Positions 5,227-58,054 of a stretch of 60,108 nt of DNA are shown one piece after another (within the stretch, counting starts at the first letter, position 1; each line of letters starts with the position of its first letter). The notes beneath the pieces were generated by a model. That model did no database searches, had not been told where the DNA came from, and saw nothing but the letters and a program-made list of their open reading frames with translations. A program made the translations under genes and the position numbers. This DNA comes from a virus (taxonomy: Duplodnaviria; Caudoviricetes), in IMG/VR virus record IMGVR_UViG_3300008262_000065, positions 1 through 60,108 of that record. One strand, 5' to 3'.

Positions 5227-5256
5227 GTGTCTTCAAAGACACTCACTTTTATTTTT
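5223..5256. terminator. Probable terminator between convergent arms, built on palindrome copy 2 (5227-5242)
   Basis: GTGAGTGTCTTCAAAGACACTCAC followed by TTTTATTTTT, between the stop codons of the + and - arms. Confidence 0.75.
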
Positions 5257-45674: not shown

Positions 45675-47290
45675 TTTGTATCGTATGCTCTCGCCATCGT
45701 GATGATAGCGTTGGTTGATAGAATTGTTGTTGCCACACTGATGGCGTTCTGCAGTGCTGAACGTGTTACCTTCACGGGGTCAATTACTCCCATCTCAATT
45801 AGGTTCCCTCTCTCTCCCGTTACCACGTTGTAGCCATACCCTTCTTTTGGAATGTCACTCTCGCTATACACATCCTCCAACTTCAGACCTGCGTTTACCA
45901 ATATCTGAATCAACGGAATCTGCAATGAGGCGTGAAGTATTCTCTTCGCCTGCTCACGTTCCTTCGTGTCACCCTCTTCAGGCACAATGCTCAAAGCTTC
46001 TTCGAACAATGCCTTACCTGCACCCGGTAGTATGCCTTCCTCAAGAGCAGACCTTACGGCACACACCGCATCATCTACTCGGTCATATAACTCCTTCTGC
46101 TCAATGTCAGTATTGCCACCAACATGAATCACACCTACACCACCCGTCAATGAGGCAATGCGTGAAAGGATAAAGTCTTTGTCGTGCTTCTTGGTAGCGG
46201 TCTTGTGTGCGTCCCACAACTGAGCAACTCTGTTGTCCAACTCCTCATGGTCCGTTCTGAACTCAGAGTTTATAATCACAGTGCTCTTCGAGTCAACGAT
46301 AATCTTCGCAGCATGACCAAGGTCAGCATACGTTATCATGCTCAAGTCATCACCCGTCTTCTCAGAGAAGTACTTGGCACCAACCGACAATGCAATGTCC
46401 TGCATCAACTCATGCTTCTTGTAACCAAACTGTGGTGGCTCAATCGCACATAGCTTCAAATTGTTCTTCACCACATTCGCTGCCAACGTATTCACCACGT
46501 TCACTGAGCATGGCGCAATAAGCAACAACTTCTTACCCTCTGCAATGATTGGCTTCAACACCGGCTCAATCTGCAGCAAGTTGTGTATCTCAGCGTCACT
46601 GACCAACACCATCACATCCTCATACACACACTCGTCCTTCTTGTGGTCATTGATGAACAACGGTGAGTAGTACCCACGCTGAACCTTGAACCCATGTGTG
46701 CTCTCAGCATATGTCTCAGTGGTCTGCGACTTCTCTACCGTCACAATACCATTCTCCCCAATCTCATTGTACACCTTGGCAATAATCTCACCAATAGACT
46801 TATCGTTATTTGCCGATATAGTAGCTACATCCAACAATGTCTTCTCCGTCAGTTTGACATGGCGTTTGCTCAACTTCTCCAAGATGTTATTGCCTATGTC
46901 CACTATCTCTCGCAACACAATCGTTCTGTTCGTCTCAGAGTCCATCAATTGGTCCCCCGATTTCACAATCGCCTCAGTCAACACAATGGCAGTTGTCGTG
47001 CCATCACCCGCTGAGTTCGCAGTCTTGTCCGCTGCCTCTTTAACCATTCTTACCGCAAGGTTCTCTACCGGGTCCATCAGGTCAATAGCTTTAGCTACCG
47101 TTACCCCGTCCTTGGTCACAGTGATACCGCCCGTGTGTGAAGGTGACTCTATCAACACAGTGTTACCCCTCGGTCCCAATGTGCTCTTTACCGCACCCGC
47201 AATCTTTGAAATACCATTTACTAATTTCTTACGACCTTCCTCGCTGAAGTGCAAGTCCTTTGGTGAATAACCAATTGTACCATCCATCAT
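45671..47290 (-). CDS. groEL: Chaperonin GroEL
   Basis: TLGPRG, VTKDGVTVA, AGDGTTTA, ISANND, GVIDPVKVTRSALQNA. Confidence 0.97.
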   Translation of the reverse strand: MMDGTIGYSPKDLHFSEEGRKKLVNGISKIAGAVKSTLGPRGNTVLIESPSHTGGITVTKDGVTVAKAIDLMDPVENLAVRMVKEAADKTANSAGDGTTTAIVLTEAIVKSGDQLMDSETNRTIVLREIVDIGNNILEKLSKRHVKLTEKTLLDVATISANNDKSIGEIIAKVYNEIGENGIVTVEKSQTTETYAESTHGFKVQRGYYSPLFINDHKKDECVYEDVMVLVSDAEIHNLLQIEPVLKPIIAEGKKLLLIAPCSVNVVNTLAANVVKNNLKLCAIEPPQFGYKKHELMQDIALSVGAKYFSEKTGDDLSMITYADLGHAAKIIVDSKSTVIINSEFRTDHEELDNRVAQLWDAHKTATKKHDKDFILSRIASLTGGVGVIHVGGNTDIEQKELYDRVDDAVCAVRSALEEGILPGAGKALFEEALSIVPEEGDTKEREQAKRILHASLQIPLIQILVNAGLKLEDVYSESDIPKEGYGYNVVTGERGNLIEMGVIDPVKVTRSALQNAISVATTILSTNAIITMARAYDTK

Positions 47291-47312
47291 GTGATTTAAT
47301 TTAAGTGATGTG

Positions 47313-47320
47313 CAAATATA
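47313..47320 (-). promoter_or_regulatory. -7 promoter box for groEL
   Basis: TATATTTG on the - strand. Confidence 0.65.
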
Positions 47321-47339
47321 AAACCTTTAACATGAAAAC

Positions 47340-47470
47340 CATAATGACATTTCTTTACTTTCCCTATTCTCTCTCTCTCTCTCCTCCTTTATTTATTTTT
47401 TTTTATAGTAACAAACTTCTTTTAAAATTGACATTTTTAACATTAATATTAATAATCAATAAGTTAGAAA
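47340..47470. repeat. AT-rich element, second copy of the element spanning the window junction (origin-like)
   Basis: TTTCCCTAT-(CT)n-poly T-..AATTGACATT. Confidence 0.5.
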
Positions 47471-47558
47471 TAAATAATAAGCATTAAAATAGGTTTAGTA
47501 ATGTCGATAATAGAACATAAAAATTAGAAAGTATACCAAACCACCCAAAACACAACCC

Positions 47559-47588
47559 AAAAAAAAAGAGAGCATCGCTGCCCTCTCC
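47559..47588 (-). terminator. Rho-independent terminator
   Basis: AGAGGGCA-GCGA-TGCTCTCT followed by a T-run on the - strand. Confidence 0.75.
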
Positions 47589-47624
47589 AACATATATCCC
47601 AAAGAAATACAATGAAATTAGAGA

Positions 47625-47834
47625 TTAACTCTCTAACCCAAGCATACTTTCCCTCATACTCGCACGTACATCCGCCTCTACCATCATACCAATCTTCTCC
47701 TCCCGCTTACGTGCCTTCCTCGCATCAGCTGCTGCCTGTATACCCATAGTGCCATCAGGCAAGTTATTTATCAAGCGACCATTCTTTACAGTCAACCCCG
47801 GCTGACCTATAAATCCTAATACCTTCTTTTTCAT
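47625..47834 (-). CDS. Hypothetical protein, first gene of the late arm
   Basis: ORF with promoter box TAACTTTG at 47848-47855 and downstream terminator. Confidence 0.65.
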   Translation of the reverse strand: MKKKVLGFIGQPGLTVKNGRLINNLPDGTMGIQAAADARKARKREEKIGMMVEADVRASMRESMLGLES

Positions 47835-47899
47835 AGAATTGTTTTTACAAAGTTACAAAAAAATATTAGATAAGTAGAGGTTTAGGGCTCTACTGCAAA

Positions 47900-48245
47900 A
47901 TACGCAGCGCACCCCCCGTGGGGAAGCCACCCCCTCGGTCAAGGGTGGGGGGTCTGTTTTCGCCTGCGCACCTGCAACTTTTTGGCTTTTTCCCGCAGCA
48001 CCCCCGCAGCACTGCCTGCCTGCCTTATGTGTATGGTATCGGACCTGCTGCCTGCTTACCTGCCTGCTGCCTATGGCTTAACTGCCTGCCGTCCGTCCGT
48101 CCGCACTGCCTGCCTGCATGGATGAATGAATAAGCAGCACCTTGCGCCTGCCTATGGTGTCCTTGAAGACACTATCTGTAGGGTATCAGAACACACAAGA
48201 GACAGAGAGACATCTCTTAGCCCTTTGCCCACTGCCTGCAATCTG
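47900..48245. repeat. GC-rich non-coding region with strand-biased CTGC/CTGCC repeats (possible genome terminus/packaging region)
   Basis: ctgcctgcctgcc, cctgctgcctgc, gtccgtccgtccg etc. at the divergence point of the two arms. Confidence 0.6.
48157..48172. repeat. 16-bp palindrome copy 8 (1 mismatch)
   Basis: GTGTCCTTGAAGACAC. Confidence 0.85.
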
Positions 48246-48354
48246 TAATAAAAGATAGTGCTTCGAGCAGCCCAAACAATGCAGGTACAACATAAGTTCA
48301 ACCCATGTACAAACAAGGCATGAAAAAAAAATTGAAATATTTTTGCCTTGGGTA

Positions 48355-48384
48355 TTGTATTGTACGAAAATTATACTATCTTCG
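48355..48384 (+). promoter_or_regulatory. Probable first early promoter
   Basis: TTG..TATCTTCG (one mismatch to TAnnTTTG) with an A-tract upstream. Confidence 0.55.
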
Positions 48385-48446
48385 TGTCGCCAATGAGGGA
48401 AACCGAGGCACTAAAAACTAACTAACTAACTGAAAATCAACACACT

Positions 48447-49109
48447 ATGAGTAATTTAATGCAAATCGAGCAGGCACTTCTAAGCCTACCACAAGTAAAA
48501 CAAGGTCTTTGCCTTACTGAAATCCGCAGCGCACTACGTGCTGAGACCAATGCACAGAAGCAGAAGTTCACCAAGACAATTGCGCTATCTGTATTGGTAT
48601 CCAAAGCCTATGCTTGGTTCCAATCTGAGGAAGGCAAGGCTATCTTCCGTGAAGAGGGGGTGACATGGACCGCAGAGGATTTCGCAAACAAAGTTTTTGG
48701 GTGGCAAAAAAGCTACTTCAGCAAGGTGAACAAAGCAGGCAAACTACCTGCAGAAACAATTGCCTTGTTCAACGCAAAGTGCGATGAGGCTGAGGCTGCA
48801 GGCGATAAGCCAAACAGAACTCTTGAGGGACTGCACAAGTGGGTGAAGGCAAGTGCCCAAGGTGAAACCGAAGGCAGCGGAAAAGGTGAGGGCGAAGGCG
48901 ATGGACAAGAGGAAGGCGAAGACACAACTGCAGCAGTGGAAGTGCAAGTGCCCACTATTTTGCCCTTTGCTTTCAAGGCAGCGGACCTTGGATTGGGCAA
49001 AAATGTGAGCATCAGAGTGCAACAAGACGGCACTTTGGTGAGCAGCAATACTGCCTATGAAATCAATATGGCGCTTGAGTTCTTGAAGGCAGCCATTGAG
49101 GCGAGGTAA
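48447..49109 (+). CDS. First early gene; putative HTH DNA-binding protein
   Basis: EGVTWTAEDFANKVFGWQKSYFSKVNKAGKLP resembles a ParB/Spo0J-type HTH; acidic linker. Confidence 0.5.
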   Translation: MSNLMQIEQALLSLPQVKQGLCLTEIRSALRAETNAQKQKFTKTIALSVLVSKAYAWFQSEEGKAIFREEGVTWTAEDFANKVFGWQKSYFSKVNKAGKLPAETIALFNAKCDEAEAAGDKPNRTLEGLHKWVKASAQGETEGSGKGEGEGDGQEEGEDTTAAVEVQVPTILPFAFKAADLGLGKNVSIRVQQDGTLVSSNTAYEINMALEFLKAAIEAR

Positions 49110-49121
49110 GCACTATGGGGG

Positions 49122-49137
49122 GTGTCTTTAAAGACAC
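49122..49137. repeat. 16-bp palindrome copy 9 (before ribozyme 1)
   Basis: GTGTCTTTAAAGACAC. Confidence 0.95.
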
Positions 49138-49142
49138 CTCTC

Positions 49143-49191
49143 GCGTCCAAGGGTGAGTGCCCTTGCTGATGAGTCCAAGAGGACGAAACGC
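49143..49191 (+). ncRNA. Type III hammerhead ribozyme 1
   Basis: GCGU-C | CAAGGG-UGAGUG-CCCUUG | CUGAUGA | GUCC-AAGA-GGAC | GAA-ACGC; predicted cut after GUC at 49147. Confidence 0.95.
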
Positions 49192-49221
49192 AAACAAAAA
49201 ACCAACAAAAACACCACAGAT

Positions 49222-50196
49222 ATGACAACATTCCAAGAATTAAAAGAAGGTCGCAAGTACGAAATTACGGGTGACTATGACCGCAGCGTAGTTCAAAGCT
49301 ACCACAGAAAGCCAAGTGCCCTCAAGCACAATGTCAGCAAGTTTGCTGCCGATGTAATGGGACTCAAAGCCATTGACCGCAGCAAGGCAATTTTGAGAGT
49401 GCAGGACGAGTTTATGAGCAAGTTTACCATTGGGTATGAGATTGAGAAAAACGCTTTCCATAGGGGTGCGGTACAAGAATACCCACTGCTGCAGGGGTTT
49501 GAACGTGACGGGTCATGTGGCTATGAGGCAGTGACAAACATCTTACCCCTACTGCCCGAAGGCAAGTGGCGCAACAAGGTGTACGAGATGTTTACGCAGG
49601 CTGAGAAAATTATTGACTCTCGCTATAGCCCTGCGGACCGCAGGTGCGGTGGTCATATCACCTTGACCTGCAAGGACCTATCAAGTGATGAGATGAGGGT
49701 AAAATTGAGAGCATATGCAGGCATCCTGCTTGCCTTGTACGAGAGTCGTATCTCGAATAGGTACTGCGGTCACAACTTGCGTATGCAGCCCGACAATGAG
49801 AATTGGTACAATGGACCGAATTGCTACGAGGGCAATGGCACAAGGTATCAGTTTGCACTTGAGAAGACCTTTGGCTATGGTCGTGAGGCACAAGGTGCGG
49901 TTGAGTTCCGTATCGTGAGCAAATTTGAGTCAGTGAAGCAGTGCTTTCGCAGGTATGAATTGTGCTACGAACTCATGGACACTGCGTTCAATAGCCCGAC
50001 AAGTTTTCCTTCCTTTCTGAAGCGAATCCGTCCGATAGTTCTTTCAATGTACGGCAACGATGCTGCAGCCTGCGACCTGCGTCTTGAGAAGGCAAAGCAC
50101 TATCAGCACTTCATCAACACGGGTAAGATACACGAGAGCATTGTATCGGTCCTTGACCCGCACAGAAACCATGGATGGCGACATATGCCCTTCTGA
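49222..50196 (+). CDS. Putative amidoligase (COOH-NH2 ligase, glutamate-cysteine ligase/GS fold)
   Basis: IGYEIE..RDGSC..YEAVT..CGGHI..VEFR; start reassigned to ATG 49222 after the ribozyme. Confidence 0.7.
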   Translation: MTTFQELKEGRKYEITGDYDRSVVQSYHRKPSALKHNVSKFAADVMGLKAIDRSKAILRVQDEFMSKFTIGYEIEKNAFHRGAVQEYPLLQGFERDGSCGYEAVTNILPLLPEGKWRNKVYEMFTQAEKIIDSRYSPADRRCGGHITLTCKDLSSDEMRVKLRAYAGILLALYESRISNRYCGHNLRMQPDNENWYNGPNCYEGNGTRYQFALEKTFGYGREAQGAVEFRIVSKFESVKQCFRRYELCYELMDTAFNSPTSFPSFLKRIRPIVLSMYGNDAAACDLRLEKAKHYQHFINTGKIHESIVSVLDPHRNHGWRHMPF

Positions 50197-50213
50197 CGGG
50201 GGGCATGGGGGTG

Positions 50214-50229
50214 GTGTCTTTGAAGACAC
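50214..50229. repeat. 16-bp palindrome copy 10 (before ribozyme 2)
   Basis: GTGTCTTTGAAGACAC. Confidence 0.95.
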
Positions 50230-50236
50230 TGCTCCC

Positions 50237-50287
50237 GTTGTCGGGGAATGCGAGTTCCTCCTGATGAGTTCAAAAGAACGAAACAAC
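50237..50287 (+). ncRNA. Type III hammerhead ribozyme 2
   Basis: GUUGU-C | GGGGAA-UGCGAG-UUCCUC | CUGAUGA | GUUC-AAAA-GAAC | GAA-ACAAC; predicted cut after 50242. Confidence 0.95.
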
Positions 50288-50314
50288 AAAACAACACACT
50301 AAAAAAAACAACAT

Positions 50315-50590
50315 ATGGTACACAAAATTCACGATGACATGAGTCACTACAGAGTAAGCTTCGATGGTATCCACGGCAAGCCAAAGGCTATGCAGTTGGA
50401 GAACTATCTCAACAGAAACAAGTTCGAACTTGATTGGGAGAACTTCAAGGAGGTATGCAATGGGCACAAGGAGGTGACCATTTGGAGAAACCCACGTACT
50501 GAAGATAGCATCGAAAGGTACGGCAAGAACCTTGTCTACACTGAGTTCCACGAGGAACGGAATGTGAGGTGGTTATTGACTAACTACTGA
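50315..50590 (+). CDS. Hypothetical early protein
   Basis: ORF between ribozymes 2 and 3, A-rich leader. Confidence 0.7.
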   Translation: MVHKIHDDMSHYRVSFDGIHGKPKAMQLENYLNRNKFELDWENFKEVCNGHKEVTIWRNPRTEDSIERYGKNLVYTEFHEERNVRWLLTNY

Positions 50591-50603
50591 GCACCAAGGG
50601 TAG

Positions 50604-50619
50604 GTGTCTTCAAAGACAC
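50604..50619. repeat. 16-bp palindrome copy 11 (before ribozyme 3)
   Basis: GTGTCTTCAAAGACAC. Confidence 0.95.
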
Positions 50620-50624
50620 TGCCC

Positions 50625-50675
50625 GTTGTAAGTGGATGTGAGTCCACTCTGACGAGTCCAAAAGGACGAAACAAC
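50625..50675 (+). ncRNA. Type III hammerhead ribozyme 3
   Basis: GUUGU-A | AGUGGA-UGUGAG-UCCACU | CUGACGA | GUCC-AAAA-GGAC | GAA-ACAAC; predicted cut after GUA at 50630. Confidence 0.95.
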
Positions 50676-50694
50676 AAACTAAAAAACAACATAT

Positions 50695-50976
50695 ATGACA
50701 CAACGTATTTCAAAACAAGTTAAAGCCATTGCTGATGCGCACATAGCTGCGAAAGCAAACGGCACATTCGACAACCCGCACGTGAGCACACGTGAGCAAG
50801 TAATTCAGGCACTGTTTGAGGGCAAGACCTTTGACGAGGTACTGCGTCAGGTAGAGACAAGGTTCTGCAGCATTACTACACTGCTACTGCAGGGCACATT
50901 TGACTACACGACTCAAGCCTACAAGAGAGATGTTTACAGAGGCTTCAAGACACTATTACAAGGGGGTGCAAGATGA
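50695..50976 (+). CDS. Hypothetical early protein
   Basis: ORF after ribozyme 3. Confidence 0.7.
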   Translation: MTQRISKQVKAIADAHIAAKANGTFDNPHVSTREQVIQALFEGKTFDEVLRQVETRFCSITTLLLQGTFDYTTQAYKRDVYRGFKTLLQGGAR

Positions 50977-51284
50977 AGTATAGGGTAAACATAAATGGTG
51001 CTGATGACGGGTTTGATGTAATCACTGAGGACGGGGATGTGGTATCCCTGCATCATAACGGGGACAATTGGGTGAGCACGTACTACGGGACGAGACTTTA
51101 TTCATGCGATGCAAACAACTACGTATGGGATGAACTGAGTCAGGGTTCAGTATACCTAAAAGATTGGGACCATGAGCCAACGGTGAGTGAGGCTATCAAT
51201 GATGCACTTACATGGATGGTGTTCCCTGCCCCTGCAGAGGGGTGGCAGCAGGACGATTCCATATGGGGTCAGTTCTTTGACTAA
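50973..51284 (+). CDS. Hypothetical acidic early protein
   Basis: ATGA-coupled ORF, Asp/Trp-rich. Confidence 0.7.
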   Translation: MKYRVNINGADDGFDVITEDGDVVSLHHNGDNWVSTYYGTRLYSCDANNYVWDELSQGSVYLKDWDHEPTVSEAINDALTWMVFPAPAEGWQQDDSIWGQFFD

Positions 51285-51317
51285 AAGATAAGGTCCGATG
51301 TGGTGTTGGACGGGGTG

Positions 51318-51333
51318 GTGTCTTCAAAGACAC
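51318..51333. repeat. 16-bp palindrome copy 12 (before ribozyme 4)
   Basis: GTGTCTTCAAAGACAC. Confidence 0.95.
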
Positions 51334-51339
51334 TGCCCC

Positions 51340-51388
51340 ACGTACAAGAGTGAGTGCTCTTGCTGATGATTCCAAAAGGATGAAACGT
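51340..51388 (+). ncRNA. Type III hammerhead ribozyme 4 (variant stem II closing pair)
   Basis: ACGU-A | CAAGAG-UGAGUG-CUCUUG | CUGAUGA | U-UCC-AAAA-GGA-U | GAA-ACGU; predicted cut after 51344. Confidence 0.85.
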
Positions 51389-51409
51389 AAAACCAAAAAC
51401 AAAACAGAT

Positions 51410-51640
51410 ATGACAGAGCAAAACAACAATGAGAAGAGCACCATACATTGGGTTGTATGTGTTCCTGATTTTGATGAGACAATTAAAATCAAGATGTTCA
51501 ACGCCTATGAAAGCGCACAAGTTTACATTGATGGGGTGAGGGCTGAGTATGACGCTATCATTTACACGAACAAGGAGCACGTAATCATAAACCTATGCCT
51601 TCAGTATGGCATATTACCTACACAATACCTAACATTCTAA
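51410..51640 (+). CDS. Hypothetical early protein
   Basis: Start reassigned to ATG 51410 after ribozyme 4. Confidence 0.65.
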   Translation: MTEQNNNEKSTIHWVVCVPDFDETIKIKMFNAYESAQVYIDGVRAEYDAIIYTNKEHVIINLCLQYGILPTQYLTF

Positions 51641-51643
51641 GAC

Positions 51644-51985
51644 ATGAATACAGAAGTAAGTTTCAAGATAGCAGAGATGCTAAAATCAAAAGGGTTTAAT
51701 GAAGAGGGGATTGCAGGTGTATATCATAATTCTGATAAGACACGGGTATACCCAAAAGAATACATAAAAGAAGGAGATTATACTTCAGCCCCTACCATAG
51801 CGCAAGCTATCATGTGGATGTATGAGAAGCATGGTGTGTGGGTTTATTCGTACCACAATGGGACATTATTTATTGGGTCTATACAAGACTCAACAGGTTC
51901 TATAAAAGGTAGATTGTTAGGATATAAAACCCCAACAGAAGCAGTAGAAGCAGCTATTGAGTATGCATTAACCAACTTGGTATGA
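51644..51985 (+). CDS. Hypothetical phage protein
   Basis: VSFKIAEMLKSKGF..SAPTIAQAIMW..EKHG..EAAIEYAL pattern familiar from Bacteroidota phages. Confidence 0.7.
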   Translation: MNTEVSFKIAEMLKSKGFNEEGIAGVYHNSDKTRVYPKEYIKEGDYTSAPTIAQAIMWMYEKHGVWVYSYHNGTLFIGSIQDSTGSIKGRLLGYKTPTEAVEAAIEYALTNLV

Positions 51986-52176
51986 TAGAGCATACAAACA
52001 TACACTTGATACGCATAGAGAAGCCCATTGCCCGTCTGCCATTGGATATGTACGAGCAGTGGGCAACACTGAGTGAGGACAAGCGACTATACTACATCAG
52101 AAAGGGGAGTTCGGGAGTGGGTCAGGTATCAGTGAAACACGCATCAGTATTGGCTATAAAAATAATTTTAAAATAA
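51982..52176 (+). CDS. Hypothetical protein
   Basis: ATGA-coupled ORF. Confidence 0.55.
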   Translation: MIEHTNIHLIRIEKPIARLPLDMYEQWATLSEDKRLYYIRKGSSGVGQVSVKHASVLAIKIILK

Positions 52177-52177
52177 A

Positions 52178-52209
52178 TTTGCATATGTACTTTAATTGTA
52201 CTACCTTTG
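52178..52209 (+). promoter_or_regulatory. Bacteroidota promoter (-33/-7)
   Basis: TTTG-N20-TACCTTTG. Confidence 0.85.
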
Positions 52210-52235
52210 TACCGACATTGTAAAAAGAACTAATC

Positions 52236-52439
52236 ATGAGTAACGAAAAACTAAATAGCATTGAGTGGTTGTATAACCAAATGAGCAATCTTGCAGCAGG
52301 CTATGCTACAGAATTGAATCAGCAAGAGATACTTGAAAAAGCTAAAGCCATGCACAAGAAAGAGATAATCAGAGCATTCAATGATATGAATGATGACCTT
52401 AGTGCAGAGCAATACTACAACGAAATAATTAACAACTAA
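52236..52439 (+). CDS. Hypothetical protein (paralogue of 57002-57205)
   Basis: MSNEKLNSIEW..AKAMHKKEII..AEQYY. Confidence 0.7.
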   Translation: MSNEKLNSIEWLYNQMSNLAAGYATELNQQEILEKAKAMHKKEIIRAFNDMNDDLSAEQYYNEIINN

Positions 52440-52440
52440 C

Positions 52441-52683
52441 ATGGTAACGATAAAAAACATTCAGAGTTATGGCTTCGAGACTATCGAAGACTACTATTGG
52501 TACATCTTGCAGAGCAAGGTGAATGGGCAGCACAAGCAAGCCCGTGAGTTATTCAGCAACCTATCCGAGGGTATGCAGGGACAGAGAGCAGGCTTCTTCA
52601 ATTGGCTTGAGACTGAGTCCATGCTTGAGCAGGATGAGTTGACCGCTACTATCACTTACTTTAAAACAACAAACAGAAAATAA
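52441..52683 (+). CDS. Hypothetical protein (distant paralogue of 55487-55705)
   Basis: I..SK.NGQH.QA..LF..LS..QR..F. Confidence 0.7.
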   Translation: MVTIKNIQSYGFETIEDYYWYILQSKVNGQHKQARELFSNLSEGMQGQRAGFFNWLETESMLEQDELTATITYFKTTNRK

Positions 52684-52684
52684 T

Positions 52685-52774
52685 ATGACACCACAAGTAA
52701 TCATCTATTGCGCATTCACATTCGTAATCATACCATTCGGTATAGCGTATCTAAGATACAAAGCAGACAAGTAA
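52685..52774 (+). CDS. 29-aa single-TM peptide (not in ORF track)
   Basis: MTPQVIIYCAFTFVIIPFGIAYLRYKADK. Confidence 0.5.
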   Translation: MTPQVIIYCAFTFVIIPFGIAYLRYKADK

Positions 52775-52808
52775 TAACAACCAACAACAACACCTAAAGA
52801 CAAAGACA

Positions 52809-53099
52809 ATGACACGTAACGAAATTATTGAACAGATGGTATACCACTACCAAACAGAAGGCACTGACAGATACGGACAACTTTCCACTATCATGGTATC
52901 CAATGTCATCAGCACCAATGACCCTAAGCAGATGGAACTATTGCAAGAGATAGTTCAGGTGAGCACATACGGTGGGAGATTCGGGACCTATAGAGGGTTC
53001 GTTCCATTCGGTGCATTCAAGGACAAGCAGGTAGAAGACAGATGCAAGGCTGCATTCAAACTAAACAAATCACGCATTCAAAATCAAAACAATTGGTAA
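52809..53099 (+). CDS. Hypothetical protein
   Basis: ORF with A-rich leader. Confidence 0.65.
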   Translation: MTRNEIIEQMVYHYQTEGTDRYGQLSTIMVSNVISTNDPKQMELLQEIVQVSTYGGRFGTYRGFVPFGAFKDKQVEDRCKAAFKLNKSRIQNQNNW

Positions 53100-54006: not shown

Positions 54007-55128
54007 ATGTGCATCATAATCGTAAAACAACGCAACATTGAGATACCATCAGAGTATCTAAAAAATTCATCACGCATCAACCCCCACGGGTTGGGTGTGG
54101 TATGGCTTGACACCTTTGAGATAAGCTATCACAAGTCAAGCGAGTGGTCAGTACTAAACACTGCCCGTCCGTACATTGCCCACTTCAGATACGCAACGGT
54201 AGGCAAGGTAGGTCCCGACAATACGCACCCATTCAGATGTGGTGCAAACAAGCATGAGTACCTGATGATGAACGGTACCATTCATGGTCTTGGCAACAAG
54301 GATGTATGCGATACAAAAGTATTGGCTGAGTCATTGGATTCTGTGCCACGCCACAAGTGGAAGGCTGAGTTGGAGAAGAACAGACTTGTTCGATTCGTAA
54401 CAATCAACACAAGGCTGCGTACCTTTCAGCTATACAACAGAGACTTATGGACATTCCGCAACGGGGTGTGGTATTCCAAGGACAACATCTTTCAGGACCA
54501 TGTGGTGGCAGTGTACGGCACACTGAAGAAGGGGCACGGCAACTACCACAGATACCTGACTGACTCAAAGTTTGTAGGGTCAGGCACAACCAAGGACAAG
54601 TACCCGCTTATCATACACGGCTTGCCTTATATGCTTGACAAGAAGGGCAAGGGGCACAACGTGAAGGTGGATGTATTCAAAGTGAATGACACGGTCCTTG
54701 GTAAGTTGGACCAACTTGAGGGTCACCCGAATTGGTATTGCCGAAAGCAAATCACCATCACGATGAAGAAGAAAGAGGTGACTTGTTGGTTGTACTTTGC
54801 CAAGGATTCAATGGCAGACGAGGGAGATGAGATGCACGAGTCATACGAGGTAGGCTACATACACCACCCATTTAAAAAGGAGACTACCATGAGAGACTTG
54901 TTCCTGCCTGCTGAGAAGCCCACGTATAAGCAGGTAAAGTTTGAGTCATTCGATGACCTATACTCAAACCTATCAGGCATTGAGACAGAGGATGATGAGC
55001 CTATCATTGACGAGATACCATACTGCACTTCATGCTACAAGGACCTTGCGAGTGACGGCTACGGGAACTACTGCTGCATAGGATGCAACGAGTGGTACAC
55101 GCAGGCAGAGGTAGACAACTTGTTATAG
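54007..55128 (+). CDS. Class II glutamine amidotransferase fused to gamma-glutamylcyclotransferase (AIG2-like), C-terminal Zn ribbon
   Basis: N-terminal MC, NPHGLG, HFRYAT, NTHPF; VAVYGTLKKG..N, LDQLEGHP; CTSC..CIGC. Confidence 0.85.
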   Translation: MCIIIVKQRNIEIPSEYLKNSSRINPHGLGVVWLDTFEISYHKSSEWSVLNTARPYIAHFRYATVGKVGPDNTHPFRCGANKHEYLMMNGTIHGLGNKDVCDTKVLAESLDSVPRHKWKAELEKNRLVRFVTINTRLRTFQLYNRDLWTFRNGVWYSKDNIFQDHVVAVYGTLKKGHGNYHRYLTDSKFVGSGTTKDKYPLIIHGLPYMLDKKGKGHNVKVDVFKVNDTVLGKLDQLEGHPNWYCRKQITITMKKKEVTCWLYFAKDSMADEGDEMHESYEVGYIHHPFKKETTMRDLFLPAEKPTYKQVKFESFDDLYSNLSGIETEDDEPIIDEIPYCTSCYKDLASDGYGNYCCIGCNEWYTQAEVDNLL

Positions 55129-55143
55129 TGTCTTTGAAGACAC
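55128..55143. repeat. 16-bp palindrome copy 14 (before tRNA-like element)
   Basis: GTGTCTTTGAAGACAC. Confidence 0.95.
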
Positions 55144-55144
55144 A

Positions 55145-55188
55145 AGGTGAATGGTTTCAGGGGGGTTCGATTCCCCCCGCACCTGCCA
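55145..55188 (+). ncRNA. tRNA-like minihelix (partial acceptor stem + T-arm + G-CCA; no D or anticodon arm)
   Basis: AGGTG..GGGGG-TTCGATT-CCCCC-CGCACCT-G-CCA. Confidence 0.65.
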
Positions 55189-57751: not shown

Positions 57752-58054
57752 ATGAAGAAGGAAGTATTTAATCAGTACGCAGAGAGGATAGCATTGATGT
57801 TCGGTATCTCTAAGGAAGAGTTGTTCAGTAAGACCAAGCAGAGACACATTGCAGATGCAAGGCACTTGCTATACTATATGTGCAGCACAAGACCGATGGA
57901 GTTAATCTACATTCAGAACTTTCTTGGTGATGAAGGATACGTGACCATGCACCCGCCTATCATTCATGGTATTAAGAAGGTGACTCAGCGCCTGAAGGAT
58001 GACCGAGACTACAAAGCAATCGTTGACAAACTAAAACAATCAGTAACAATCTAA
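57752..58054 (+). CDS. Stand-alone DnaA domain IV (Bac_DnaA_C-like) HTH protein
   Basis: FGISKEELFSKTKQRHIADARHLLYYM..HPPIIHGIKKV; start reassigned to ATG 57752. Confidence 0.75.
   Translation: MKKEVFNQYAERIALMFGISKEELFSKTKQRHIADARHLLYYMCSTRPMELIYIQNFLGDEGYVTMHPPIIHGIKKVTQRLKDDRDYKAIVDKLKQSVTI

What the first reader, a model, noticed from the sequence alone, without database searches (positions are those of the whole stretch)
49117..51412. Array of early-gene cassettes, each delimited by palindrome + hammerhead ribozyme
Seen: four intergenic spacers of the earliest transcription unit share one architecture. Each runs stop codon, GTGTCTTYRAAGACAC, 5-7 nt, a complete type III hammerhead (49143-49191, 50237-50287, 50625-50675, 51340-51388), a 19-30 nt A/C-rich leader, then ATG. 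The cores CUGANGA and GAAA and the GUC/GUA cleavage triplets are intact. Stems differ in sequence but keep pairing (stem I CAAGGG/CCCUUG, GGGGAA/UUCCUC, AGUGGA/UCCACU, CAAGAG/CUCUUG). Known: natural fast hammerheads use a loop 1-loop 2 contact, often a 5' U in loop 1 with a 3' A in loop 2; all four fit this (UGAGUG, UGCGAG, UGUGAG, UGAGUG versus AAGA/AAAA). Inference: the phage cuts its early polycistronic RNA into gene-sized mRNAs without host enzymes, a ribozyme analogue of RNase III processing of T7 early mRNA. Single hammerheads are known in phages; I am not aware of a described serial palindrome-ribozyme cassette system, but could not search.
Basis: partly seen in the sequence, partly recalled or inferred. 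Interest (0 to 1): 0.95.

Follow-up and report, generated by a model that had tools for sequence, protein, structure and literature searches.

The report
Hairpin-plus-hammerhead units between phage early genes
Four self-cutting hammerhead RNAs, each joined directly to a strong conserved hairpin, lie between the first genes of a 60-kb phage of Bacteroidota-type bacteria and probably cut one long early message into separately capped single-gene messages, which is a well-populated variant of an arrangement first described for phages in 2011.

Summary
Four type III hammerhead motifs lie at 49143-49191, 50237-50287, 50625-50675 and 51340-51388. Each follows a copy of GTGTCTTYRAAGACAC and precedes an A/C-rich leader and an ATG.

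A pattern scan of IMG/VR gave 111 distinct cassettes of this layout. All 6 stem I pairs and 3 inner stem II pairs covary, and 97.3% of cells are paired, so the ribozyme fold is under selection. Three window copies score 41-43 bits against Rfam RF00008, below its 48.5 cut-off. The fourth has a U10.1-U11.1 mispair, a natural variant that Perreault et al. 2011 report as active.

- Arrays of hammerheads flanking phage genes, and the mRNA-processing idea, were published in 2011.
- The palindrome is not cassette-specific. There are 16 copies genome-wide, also in terminators, before a tRNA-like element and inside ORFs.

New here: in cassettes the palindrome is extended into an RNA hairpin (G-U 120 against A-C 7) that abuts stem III, and other hairpins can replace it.

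Best reading: self-cleavage leaves a hairpin-capped 3' end and a 5'-OH leader. No cleavage data exist.

This scan found the same layout before on another genome (e1-6217120).

Verdict: new variant of a known kind, interest 0.55.

The parts
48338..48345 (+). Candidate -7 promoter box (TAnnTTTG) of the rightward early operon
   Evidence: Regex scan. The next + strand box is at 52174. The consensus is recalled from the literature on Bacteroidota promoters and was not tested.
48447..49109 (+). First early gene (220 aa), conserved, no known family
   Evidence: ORF list. No Pfam or PHROG family. 268 homologues at E <= 0.001. Fold searches gave no clear match.
49117..49142 (+). Hairpin 1: 16-mer 49122-49137 extended by flanking pairs
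   Evidence: RNAfold MFE. Flank pairing statistics.
49143..49191 (+). Hammerhead 1, type III, GUC, cleavage 49147/49148
   Evidence: RF00008 42.9 bits. Own model R1 72.0 bits. MFE fold.
49222..50196 (+). Cargo gene (324 aa), family B of the synteny map
50205..50238 (+). Hairpin 2: 16-mer 50214-50229 with 9 flanking pairs, overlapping stem III by 2 nt
50237..50287 (+). Hammerhead 2, type III, GUC, cleavage 50242/50243
   Evidence: RF00008 41.1 bits. R1 66.9 bits. The MFE does not form stem III.
50315..50590 (+). Cargo gene (91 aa), ORFan
50598..50624 (+). Hairpin 3: 16-mer 50604-50619 with a bulged extension
50625..50675 (+). Hammerhead 3, type III, GUA, CUGACGA core, cleavage 50630/50631
   Evidence: RF00008 41.2 bits. 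R1 68.9 bits. MFE fold.
50695..51284 (+). Two overlapping cargo genes (93 and 103 aa), ORFans
51312..51339 (+). Hairpin 4: 16-mer 51318-51333 with 6 flanking pairs
51340..51388 (+). Hammerhead 4, type III, GUA, U10.1-U11.1 variant, cleavage 51344/51345
   Evidence: RF00008 only 11.8 bits. R1 71.1 bits. MFE fold. The 26-nt core is identical to PaP3/LUZ24-like Pseudomonas phages.
51410..51640 (+). Gene after the last cassette (76 aa), ORFan
55128..55188 (+). Palindrome followed by a tRNA-like minihelix (5-bp acceptor-like stem, T-arm, GCCA) at a junction where four relatives carry palindrome plus hammerhead
   Evidence: Sequence. Synteny. ARAGORN finds no tRNA. Rfam gives only a T-arm-sized tmRNA fragment at 13.9 bits.

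Best explanation
The four elements are working type III hammerhead ribozymes set in the intergenic spacers of one roughly 3.8-kb early polycistronic transcript. The phage has a 60-kb genome and its relatives infect Flavobacteriia.

Each ribozyme is fused at its 5' side to a stable RNA hairpin. The hairpin is built on the phage's genome-wide 16-nt palindrome, lengthened by 1-9 further pairs, and ends where stem III begins.

Self-cleavage after GUC or GUA would give two products:
- An upstream mRNA that ends in the hairpin plus a 5-6 nt tail with a 2',3'-cyclic phosphate. Such an end gives 3' exonucleases little to hold.
- A downstream mRNA that starts with a 5'-OH, the folded ribozyme body and a 19-30 nt unstructured A/C-rich leader before the ATG.

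The result would be that neighbouring early genes are uncoupled in stability and translation. The hairpin may also keep the short (4-5 bp) stem III from being disturbed by the upstream coding sequence, by stacking on it.

Shown: the fold, its conservation, the hairpin-ribozyme join and the regular spacing. Inferred: cleavage in the cell, the single transcript, and the protective role of the hairpin.
For: Ribozyme fold:
- All core residues are intact in 4 of 4 sites.
- Three sites match RF00008 over its full length at E about 1e-6.
- Across 111 distinct cassettes from IMG/VR and the window, retrieved by a pattern that fixed only the 16-mer and the two core strings, 97.3% of cells pair. This compares with 80.1% in shuffles (0 of 500 reach it) and 35-47% when partners are slid.
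- All 6 of 6 stem I pairs, 3 of 3 inner stem II pairs and 3 of 5 stem III pairs change on both sides.
- Loop residues are nearly fixed: loop 1 first U in 111 of 111, loop 2 last A in 110 of 111.

Fourth site: the U10.1-U11.1 form occurs in 23 of the 111. Perreault et al. 2011 describe it as a natural variant that supports cleavage (passage read). Its core is identical over 26 nt to hammerheads of PaP3-like Pseudomonas phages. The same paper lists the PaP3 ribozyme among active core variants (legend read).

Hairpin acts as RNA on the sense strand:
- In the four positions flanking the 16-mer, 398 of 444 cells pair. Shuffled flanks give a mean of 313 and a maximum of 338 in 500.
- There are 120 G-U pairs against 7 A-C.
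- The centre dinucleotide on the sense strand is CA 86, TA 20, CG 4, TG 1. CA and TG are the same duplex read from opposite strands.

The join is the constant feature:
- The median gap from hairpin to stem III is -1 to 0 nt in 97 cassettes with enough flank.
- Of 132 distinct hammerheads found by my own filter, 106 follow the exact 16-mer.
- Of the other 26, 20 follow a different strong hairpin ending 0-1 nt before the ribozyme, 2 are borderline and 4 have none.

Regular layout: median 8 nt from stop to hairpin and 22 nt from ribozyme end to ATG.

One transcript: there is no TAnnTTTG box on the + strand between 48338 and 52174.

The same hairpin sits at other RNA 3' ends:
- With a U-run it forms terminator-like sites at 5227 (+) and 28796 (-), and at matching sites in relatives.
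- It directly precedes tRNA-like elements in the window, in three relatives (G003, G004, G005) and in MW202828.
Against: - No cleavage was observed.
- All four sites fall below Rfam's gathering score.
- For cassette 2 the minimum-energy fold extends the hairpin into the 5' strand of stem III, so the hairpin may compete with the ribozyme there rather than help it.
- The ribozyme is dispensable at a given junction. Between the first and second early genes the window has palindrome plus hammerhead, while G001 and G002 have the bare palindrome.
- The strict invariance of the 16-mer is not explained by a mere end-cap. Copies inside the helicase ORF and the giant ORF are kept while their flanks change or cannot be aligned at all.
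- The cassettes were collected by a pattern that demands the exact 16-mer. The share of hammerheads that follow it is therefore inflated by the way loci were chosen.
Confidence: 0.65

Rival explanations
1. The 16-mer core is first of all a site for a sequence-specific phage protein, on DNA (a global operator in the manner of KorB or ParB sites) or on RNA. The hammerheads are an optional add-on placed beside sites that mark nearly every early-gene junction. This is compatible with ribozyme cleavage, but it changes what the 'cassette delimiter' is.
For: - There are 16 copies in this genome and 10-13 in each of five complete relatives.
- Copies inside ORFs are kept. In the helicase gene the 16 nt are identical in 5 of 5 genomes while flanking third positions vary. 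In the giant ORF the flanks cannot be aligned, yet the 16-mer is present in 5 of 5 in one reading frame.
- Bare copies without flanking pairs sit 17-40 nt before start codons.
- The closest GenBank relative (terminase 77% identical) has 0 copies of this 16-mer and 0 hammerheads. It has 14 copies of GTGTCGTTAACGACAC, all in its early region, mostly between stop and ATG. That is a paired change in both arms, as expected if the site and its reader changed together.
- A conserved first early gene lies between two palindrome copies in the window, G001 and G002.
Against: - No reader protein was identified. The first early gene has no Pfam or PHROG family. The best fold matches are Z 6.0 or lower, and Spo0J appears only at rank 29 with Z 4.4, which is within noise.
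- A symmetric dimer on duplex DNA does not explain the 86 to 1 bias of CA over TG on the sense strand in cassettes.
- It also does not explain the G-U against A-C asymmetry.
- Unrelated hairpins can take the palindrome's place before a hammerhead.
Confidence: 0.35
2. Each cassette is its own transcription unit. The palindrome would be, or would overlap, a promoter (for instance a hairpin promoter for an injected polymerase, as in N4). The ribozyme would then only trim a few nucleotides with the 5' triphosphate from each new transcript.
For: - A strictly conserved 16-mer at a fixed short distance before many early genes looks like a phage-specific promoter.
- The phage carries a 3442-aa virion-type protein of unknown function.
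- In Pseudomonas phage Pa223 the same hammerhead subtype sits at the very start of the first gene.
Against: - The flanking pairs that lengthen the hairpin need the upstream flank on the same strand as the downstream one. Their G-U bias is on the sense strand, not the template strand.
- A palindromic promoter would fire both ways.
- The same element with a U-run sits at convergent gene ends as a terminator-like site.
- The giant protein gave no polymerase family in PHROGs. It was not searched against Pfam.
Confidence: 0.1
3. The conserved hairpin-ribozyme spacers act mainly as homology patches for recombination that swaps small early genes between phages. This would be like the promoter-stem-loop (PeSL) motifs of T4-type phages. 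RNA cleavage would be secondary.
For: - Between conserved genes (families A, B, E, D, C) the genes flanked by cassettes are mostly unique to each genome. In the window 9 of 15 early ORFs have no counterpart in the five relatives.
- The spacers share 60-90 nt of similar sequence.
- Some relatives carry partial duplications of the palindrome arm inside the spacer, in L022, L028, L052 and L057.
Against: - Stems I, II and III covary instead of staying identical. This shows selection for RNA pairing rather than for DNA identity.
- No recombination junctions were mapped.
- The PeSL papers were seen only as titles and first lines of abstracts.
Confidence: 0.2
4. Pairs of hammerheads release gene-length RNAs whose 5'-OH and cyclic-phosphate ends are joined by a host RtcB-type ligase into circular mRNAs.
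For: - Ribozyme pairs flank single genes at 49148-50242, 50243-50630 and 50631-51344.
- Perreault et al. 2011 raise circular or spliced products as a possibility (passage read).
Against: - The same passage says they could not detect either type of product.
- No RNA ligase or end-healing gene was found among the 39 window ORFs scanned.
- No RNA data exist.
Confidence: 0.04

Closest known systems
Clustered cis-acting hammerheads flanking genes in prophages and phages (Perreault et al. 2011, PMC3088659; passages read)
   Same: - Several hammerheads lie within a few kb.
- Each lies between single genes or short gene blocks of varying identity in phage DNA.
- The proposed role is cutting long transcripts into gene-length mRNAs.
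- The U10.1-U11.1 variant occurs there too.
   Different: - Here every ribozyme is fused to an upstream hairpin, usually built on a genome-wide invariant 16-mer.
- The layout from stop codon to ATG is metrically regular over about 100 cassettes.
- The hosts are probably Flavobacteriia or other Bacteroidota, and the leaders lack a Shine-Dalgarno sequence.
- I could not see that paper's supplementary alignments, so I cannot say whether members of this clade or the hairpin are already in them.
Type III hammerhead, Rfam RF00008
   Same: - The core residues match.
- The three-way junction is present, with stems I and II capped and stem III open.
- The loop nucleotides are conserved.
   Different: Scores are 41-43 bits for three sites and 11.8 for the fourth, all below the 48.5 cut-off. 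Stem III is short, and one copy has U-U at 10.1/11.1.
Hammerhead of PaP3/LUZ24-like Pseudomonas phages (Bruynoghevirus)
   Same: - The fourth site shares 26 identical core nucleotides, the U-U pair, the GUA site, a UGNGUG-type loop 1 (UGAGUG here, UGUGUG in Pa223) and an AAAA loop 2.
- A stem closes just before stem III in Pa223 as well (by eye).
   Different: - It is a single copy at the start of the first gene.
- The start codon lies in the 3' strand of stem III.
- There is no 16-mer palindrome.
PeSL promoter-stem-loop motifs of T4-type phages (PMC2839356, PMC4122927; search listing only)
   Same: A conserved composite intergenic motif that includes a stem-loop flanks small, variable early genes.
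   Different: - No promoter box lies in these spacers.
- The conserved part is a ribozyme.
- A recombination role was not tested here.
RNase III processing of T7 early mRNA, and tRNA punctuation of mitochondrial transcripts (recalled, no call)
   Same: A polycistronic RNA is cut at structured intergenic signals into single-gene messages that keep a 3' hairpin. A tRNA-like element occupies one junction here.
   Different: Most junctions here would be cut by the RNA itself, not by a host enzyme. This is an analogy only.

Membership tests
Hammerhead ribozyme, type III (RF00008) | Conserved core C3-U4-G5-A6-N7-G8-A9, G12-A13-A14, A15.1-U16.1 and H17 | tested here: met
   Intact in 4 of 4 window sites. 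In the 111 cassettes N7 is U 95 and C 16; H17 is C 66, A 37 and U 8. The core strings were part of the retrieval pattern.
Hammerhead ribozyme, type III (RF00008) | Three helices around the core, supported by compensatory change; stems I and II capped, stem III open | tested here: met
   stem I has 6 of 6 pairs with changes on both sides and 99.8% paired. Inner stem II has 3 of 3 and 99.4%. Stem III has 3 of 5 and 94.9%. Slid controls give 35-47%.
Hammerhead ribozyme, type III (RF00008) | Watson-Crick pair at 10.1-11.1 | tested here: inconclusive
   G-C in 3 of 4 window sites and U-U in the fourth. Among the 111: G-C 76, G-U 1, other 34, of which U-U 23, A-A 10 and U-C 1. Perreault et al. 2011 report U-U as a natural variant that supports activity. 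A-A was not discussed in the passages I read.
Hammerhead ribozyme, type III (RF00008) | Score at or above Rfam's gathering cut-off (48.5 bits) | tested here: not met
   42.9, 41.2, 41.1 and 11.8 bits. A clade-specific model gives 66.9-72.0 bits, but the four sites were in its training set.
Hammerhead ribozyme, type III (RF00008) | Site-specific self-cleavage giving 5'-OH and 2',3'-cyclic phosphate | not testable with these tools
   No RNA run holding the stretch was listed.
Clustered phage hammerheads (Perreault et al. 2011) | Several hammerheads close together flanking single genes or short blocks in phage DNA, on the sense strand | tested here: met
   4 in 2.3 kb in the window. 19 in six complete genomes, all on the sense strand of the early gene block.
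Intrinsic (factor-independent) terminator | G+C-rich hairpin followed at once by a U-run | tested here: not met
   The four cassette hairpins are followed by stem III, not by a U-run. The copies at 5227 (+) and 28796 (-) do have a U-run.
PeSL-type mobile regulatory cassette | Early promoter inside the repeated intergenic motif | tested here: not met
   No TAnnTTTG box on the + strand between 48338 and 52174. The test rests on a recalled consensus.
parS/ParB- or KorB-type operator set | A dimeric DNA-binding reader encoded by the element, plus multiple 13-16 bp palindromic sites | tested here: inconclusive
   The sites are present. The candidate reader (48447-49109) has no family, no sequence match in the PDB below E 0.8, and only weak fold matches, with Spo0J at Z 4.4, rank 29.
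N4-type hairpin promoter | Hairpin on the template strand, read by a virion RNA polymerase | tested here: inconclusive
   The G-U bias favours the non-template strand. A polymerase domain in the 3442-aa protein was not found in PHROGs and was not sought in Pfam.

The most novel reading that the evidence does not exclude
The invariant 16-nt hairpin is the recognition module of a phage-encoded mRNA punctuation system. The same hairpin would be paired interchangeably with three devices that make an RNA 3' end right after it: a self-cleaving hammerhead, a tRNA-like RNase P/Z substrate, and a U-tract terminator. A phage protein that co-evolves with it would read it, with GTGTCTT..AAGACAC in this clade and GTGTCGT..ACGACAC in the nearest relative. 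Bare copies before start codons and inside genes would then be control points for the same reader. The hammerheads would be one interchangeable part of a wider, protein-assisted system for setting the ends and lifetimes of early messages.
Probability: 0.2. Interest if true: 0.8.

Novelty: new variant of a known kind. Interest (0 to 1): 0.55.

Why it matters
What bacterial and phage hammerheads are for is still open. The 2019 review PMC6765202 (passages read) says processing of polycistronic transcripts has been suggested, but that more work is needed to define their purpose.

This clade offers more than 100 natural cassettes with a fixed geometry running stop codon, hairpin, ribozyme, leader, ATG. 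It also offers natural 'experiments':
- The same junction occurs with and without the ribozyme.
- Some junctions have another hairpin in place of the palindrome.
- Some junctions have a tRNA-like element in place of the ribozyme.

These make the processing and end-protection hypotheses directly testable. Cultured relatives with a hammerhead but no palindrome exist (Flavobacterium Elemovirus).

The module also resembles engineered ribozyme insulators used in synthetic biology (recalled). It would be a natural version with a built-in 3' cap.

Tried and rejected
- **RNA evidence.** The look-up of sequencing runs: no RNA holder listed. The three RNA runs shown came only from the same sample or study and hold next to none of the sampled words. 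I did not use read laying, because contigs of runs without the stretch could not show ends.
- **Candidate reader protein (48447-49109).** There is no Pfam or PHROG family and no PDB sequence match below E 0.8. The AlphaFold model has pLDDT 81.6. Foldseek against the PDB gave nothing at E <= 0.001. VIA-align wide gave a best Z of 6.0 and Spo0J at Z 4.4, rank 29, which is within the noise range the tool itself states. The ParB-like idea is neither supported nor excluded.
A scan for further CUGANGA...GAAA cores with a stem II found only the four cis sites in the window, plus one unconvincing antisense match at 52912. It found none in the 20.8-kb early region of MW202828. The rest of MW202828 was searched only with RF00008.
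Almost all were single copies in unrelated taxa, as chance predicts for 596 Gb by my own estimate. The exception is a 56-kb contig binned with a Cytophagales MAG, with at least 5 copies, which is probably a phage of this group.
- **Phage database.** blastn of 47000-53000 found only one distant record, over the GroEL end.
- **tRNA calls.** ARAGORN found no tRNA after any palindrome. Rfam tRNA reached only 16.8 bits on the G004 element. I therefore call these elements tRNA-like, not tRNAs.
- **Pseudoknot idea.** I considered pairing between loop 1 and the 3' arm of the palindrome. I dropped it because the needed bases are present in only about half of the cassettes (read by eye).
- **Literature.**
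  - searched 'hammerhead', 'Cellulophaga', 'Flavobacterium phage' and 'flavobacterial phages'. None of the 15 listed papers contains 'hammerhead'.
  - Searches gave no paper describing a hairpin-hammerhead module in phages.
  - These four searches are the whole basis for saying I found no description in print. Supplementary files, including the alignments of Perreault et al. 2011, were closed.

Full report
**What is there**

The window is a whole 60,108-bp phage genome in one contig. Genes run leftward from about 47.3 kb to 5.2 kb. These include terminase, portal, a 1557-aa structural protein and a 3442-aa protein. Genes run rightward from 48.4 kb across the end of the contig to 5.2 kb; these are small ORFans followed by replication and recombination genes.

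The terminase is 77% identical to that of MW202828. It is 44% identical to Flavobacterium Elemovirus phages and 30-38% identical to Cellulophaga and Tenacibaculum phages. The host is therefore probably a member of the Flavobacteriia or another Bacteroidota group.

**Are the hammerheads real?**

- The core pattern occurs four times in the window, only at these sites. Shuffles expect 0.29.
- Rfam finds nothing at gathering score. It does align three sites end to end to Hammerhead_3 at 41-43 bits, E about 1e-6. The fourth site gets 11.8 bits.

The decisive evidence comes from relatives:

- A scan of IMG/VR with a pattern that fixes only the 16-mer and the two core strings returned 76 stretches. 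Together with the window these give 111 distinct cassettes.
- The stems were not part of the pattern. On the alignment, 97.3% of cells pair, against 80.1% in shuffles and 35-47% in slid controls.
- Every stem I pair, every inner stem II pair and three of five stem III pairs show changes on both sides.
- Loop 1 (UGNGUG) and loop 2 (NAAA) are nearly fixed while the stems vary. This fits a loop-loop contact but does not prove one.

The fourth site's U10.1-U11.1 pair recurs in 23 of the 111 cassettes. Perreault et al. 2011 name it as a natural variation that supports more cleavage than other mispairs. Its 26-nt core is identical to that of PaP3-like Pseudomonas phages, and the same paper lists the PaP3 hammerhead among active variants.

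I conclude that all four are hammerheads under selection. Whether they cleave in the cell is untested.

**What the palindrome is**

It is not a cassette delimiter. The window has 15 exact copies and one copy with a single mismatch. Five complete relatives have 10-13 each. The contexts are:

1. Before a hammerhead.
2. With flanking G-C pairs and a U-run, at a convergent gene end (5227) and between late genes (28796, minus strand). These look like terminators.
3. Directly before tRNA-like elements.
4. Bare, 17-40 nt before a start codon, in some cases just after a TAnnTTTG box.
5. Inside ORFs at matching positions in different genomes. In the helicase gene the 16 nt are identical in 5 of 5 genomes while neighbouring third codon positions vary. 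In the giant ORF the flanks cannot be aligned at all.

The nearest GenBank relative lacks this 16-mer and lacks hammerheads. It has 14 copies of a palindrome that differs by a matched change in both arms, mostly between the stop and start codons of early genes. The core therefore has a function of its own, most simply as a site for a sequence-specific reader that I could not identify.

**What is special in the cassettes**

The palindrome is lengthened there into a longer hairpin:

- The four positions on each side pair in 398 of 444 cells. Shuffled flanks give a mean of 313 and a maximum of 338 in 500.
- There are 120 G-U pairs against 7 A-C.
- The centre reads CA on the sense strand 86 times and TG once.

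Both asymmetries point to a structure on the sense strand, that is, in the RNA.

The hairpin ends where stem III begins, with a median gap of -1 to 0 nt in 97 cassettes.

Among 132 distinct hammerheads found with my own filter in the fetched loci, 106 follow the exact 16-mer. Of the remaining 26, 20 follow another strong hairpin that ends 0-1 nt before the ribozyme, 2 are borderline and 4 have none. One example is a 7-bp stem with a GAAA loop in G002. The loci were chosen for having at least one exact cassette, so 106 of 132 overstates the share. The substitution by unrelated hairpins is nonetheless informative: the constant feature is a hairpin joined to the ribozyme.

**How it most likely works**

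The only + strand -7-type box between 48338 and 52174 is the one at 48338 (consensus recalled). This suggests one transcript over all four cassettes.

Cleavage would leave the upstream message ending in the hairpin plus 5-6 nt. It would leave the downstream message starting with a 5'-OH, the ribozyme body and an unstructured leader, with a median of 22 nt from ribozyme end to ATG.

The same hairpin also ends terminator-like sites and sits just before tRNA-like elements, where RNase P would cut. This supports the view that it is meant to be the 3' end of an RNA.

At the junction after the GGCT-domain gene, four relatives have palindrome plus hammerhead. The window has palindrome plus a minihelix with a T-arm and GCCA. 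This looks like an exchange of one cutting device for another, although ARAGORN and Rfam do not call a tRNA there.

Points against a simple picture:

- The ribozyme is absent at the same junction in some relatives.
- In cassette 2 the hairpin may compete with stem III.
- An end-cap role alone does not explain the invariance of the core.

**Comparison with what is known**

Perreault et al. [quoted passage not shown] They state that this implies processing of long phage transcripts into operon- or gene-length mRNAs. They also report that three tandem arrangements cleaved in vitro. The 2019 review still calls the purpose unresolved.

I did not find in four searches the fixed fusion of a hairpin to the ribozyme, its construction on a genome-wide palindrome, or its occurrence in phages of Bacteroidota. 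I could not see supplementary alignments.

The cassette array also resembles the PeSL motifs of T4-type phages in flanking variable early ORFans (listing only). One search shows that cargo genes here are largely genome-specific. A recent paper shows that self-cleavage can enable translation in RNA viruses of fungi and plants (abstract read). This is a reminder that a fresh 5' end near the start codon may itself be the point.

**Earlier notes of this scan**

- A follow-up on another genome (e1-6217120) reached the same description for a 64-kb lake phage, so the scan has found this before on other DNA.
- The ParB-like reader note remains untested in substance.

**Verdict**

This is a new variant of a known kind. 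It is of moderate to good interest, because the clade gives many natural contrasts for testing what phage hammerheads do.

Noticed in passing
window 55128-55188: A palindrome copy is followed after 1 nt by a minihelix: AGGTG, a 10-nt linker, a 6-bp T-arm with a TTCGATT loop, then CACCT and GCCA. It sits at a junction where G002-G005 have palindrome plus hammerhead. G003, G004, G005 and MW202828 also have tRNA-like elements right after a palindrome. ARAGORN calls none of them, and Rfam tRNA scores 16.8 bits on the G004 element.
   Followed up: partly
L077 (MW202828 40000-60850), e.g. 3746, 4542, 4809, 5597: The nearest GenBank relative has 14 copies of its own 16-bp palindrome (GTGTCGTTAACGACAC). 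All lie in the early region, mostly 3-5 nt after a stop codon and 16-22 nt before the next ATG. It has no hammerhead. Compared with the window's palindrome, both arms changed in step.
   Followed up: partly
window 3717 and 12151; G001-G005 matching sites: The 16-mer is kept inside the helicase ORF (read as SVFEDT) and inside the 3442-aa ORF (read as VSSKT or VSLKT). In the latter the surrounding sequence is unalignable between genomes. This indicates selection on the nucleic acid.
   Followed up: partly
alignment A1 (111 cassettes): The cleavage-site base tracks the 10.1/11.1 pair. C17 goes with G-C 62 times. A17 goes with U-U 22 times and with G-C 14 times. U17 goes with A-A 7 times. This may be shared descent or a functional link; I found no explanation.
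   Followed up: no
window 5227, 12151, 18736, 28796, 35900, 43733, 48157: In the leftward late block the palindrome copies are spaced 4.4-10 kb apart, mostly about 7 kb. Relatives show spacings near 7-8 kb or about twice that.
   Followed up: no
window minus strand 47855, 44767, 43624, 38558, 33926, 31424, 27949, 15589: A recurring TAACTTTG / TTACYTTTG type box lies just upstream of late genes. It looks like a Bacteroidota -7 promoter element (recalled consensus).
   Followed up: no
L082 1501-1556 (-), Flavobacterium phage elemoE NC_055854; L083 1501-1544 (-), Cellulophaga phage phi19:3: Cultured relatives carry hammerheads without the palindrome. elemoE has a type III copy about 25 nt before an ATG (36.3 bits RF00008, 41.4 bits R1). 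phi19:3 has a copy that looks like type I by eye.
   Followed up: partly
L133 and L180 (contig of 56,458 bp binned with a Cytophagales MAG): At least 5 copies of the 16-mer lie on one phage-sized contig in a bacterial genome collection. It is probably a phage of this clade binned with a possible host.
   Followed up: no
window 57752-58054: A 100-aa protein consisting of a DnaA C-terminal helix-turn-helix domain (PF08299, E 8e-8) is encoded just after palindrome copy 57707. It is another candidate DNA binder. MW202828 also has such a gene.
   Followed up: no
L105 (Pseudomonas virus Pa223 928-1366): The PaP3-type hammerhead has its gene's ATG inside the 3' strand of stem III, and a stem closing just upstream of stem III. 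The hairpin-then-ribozyme join may therefore be more general than this clade.
   Followed up: no
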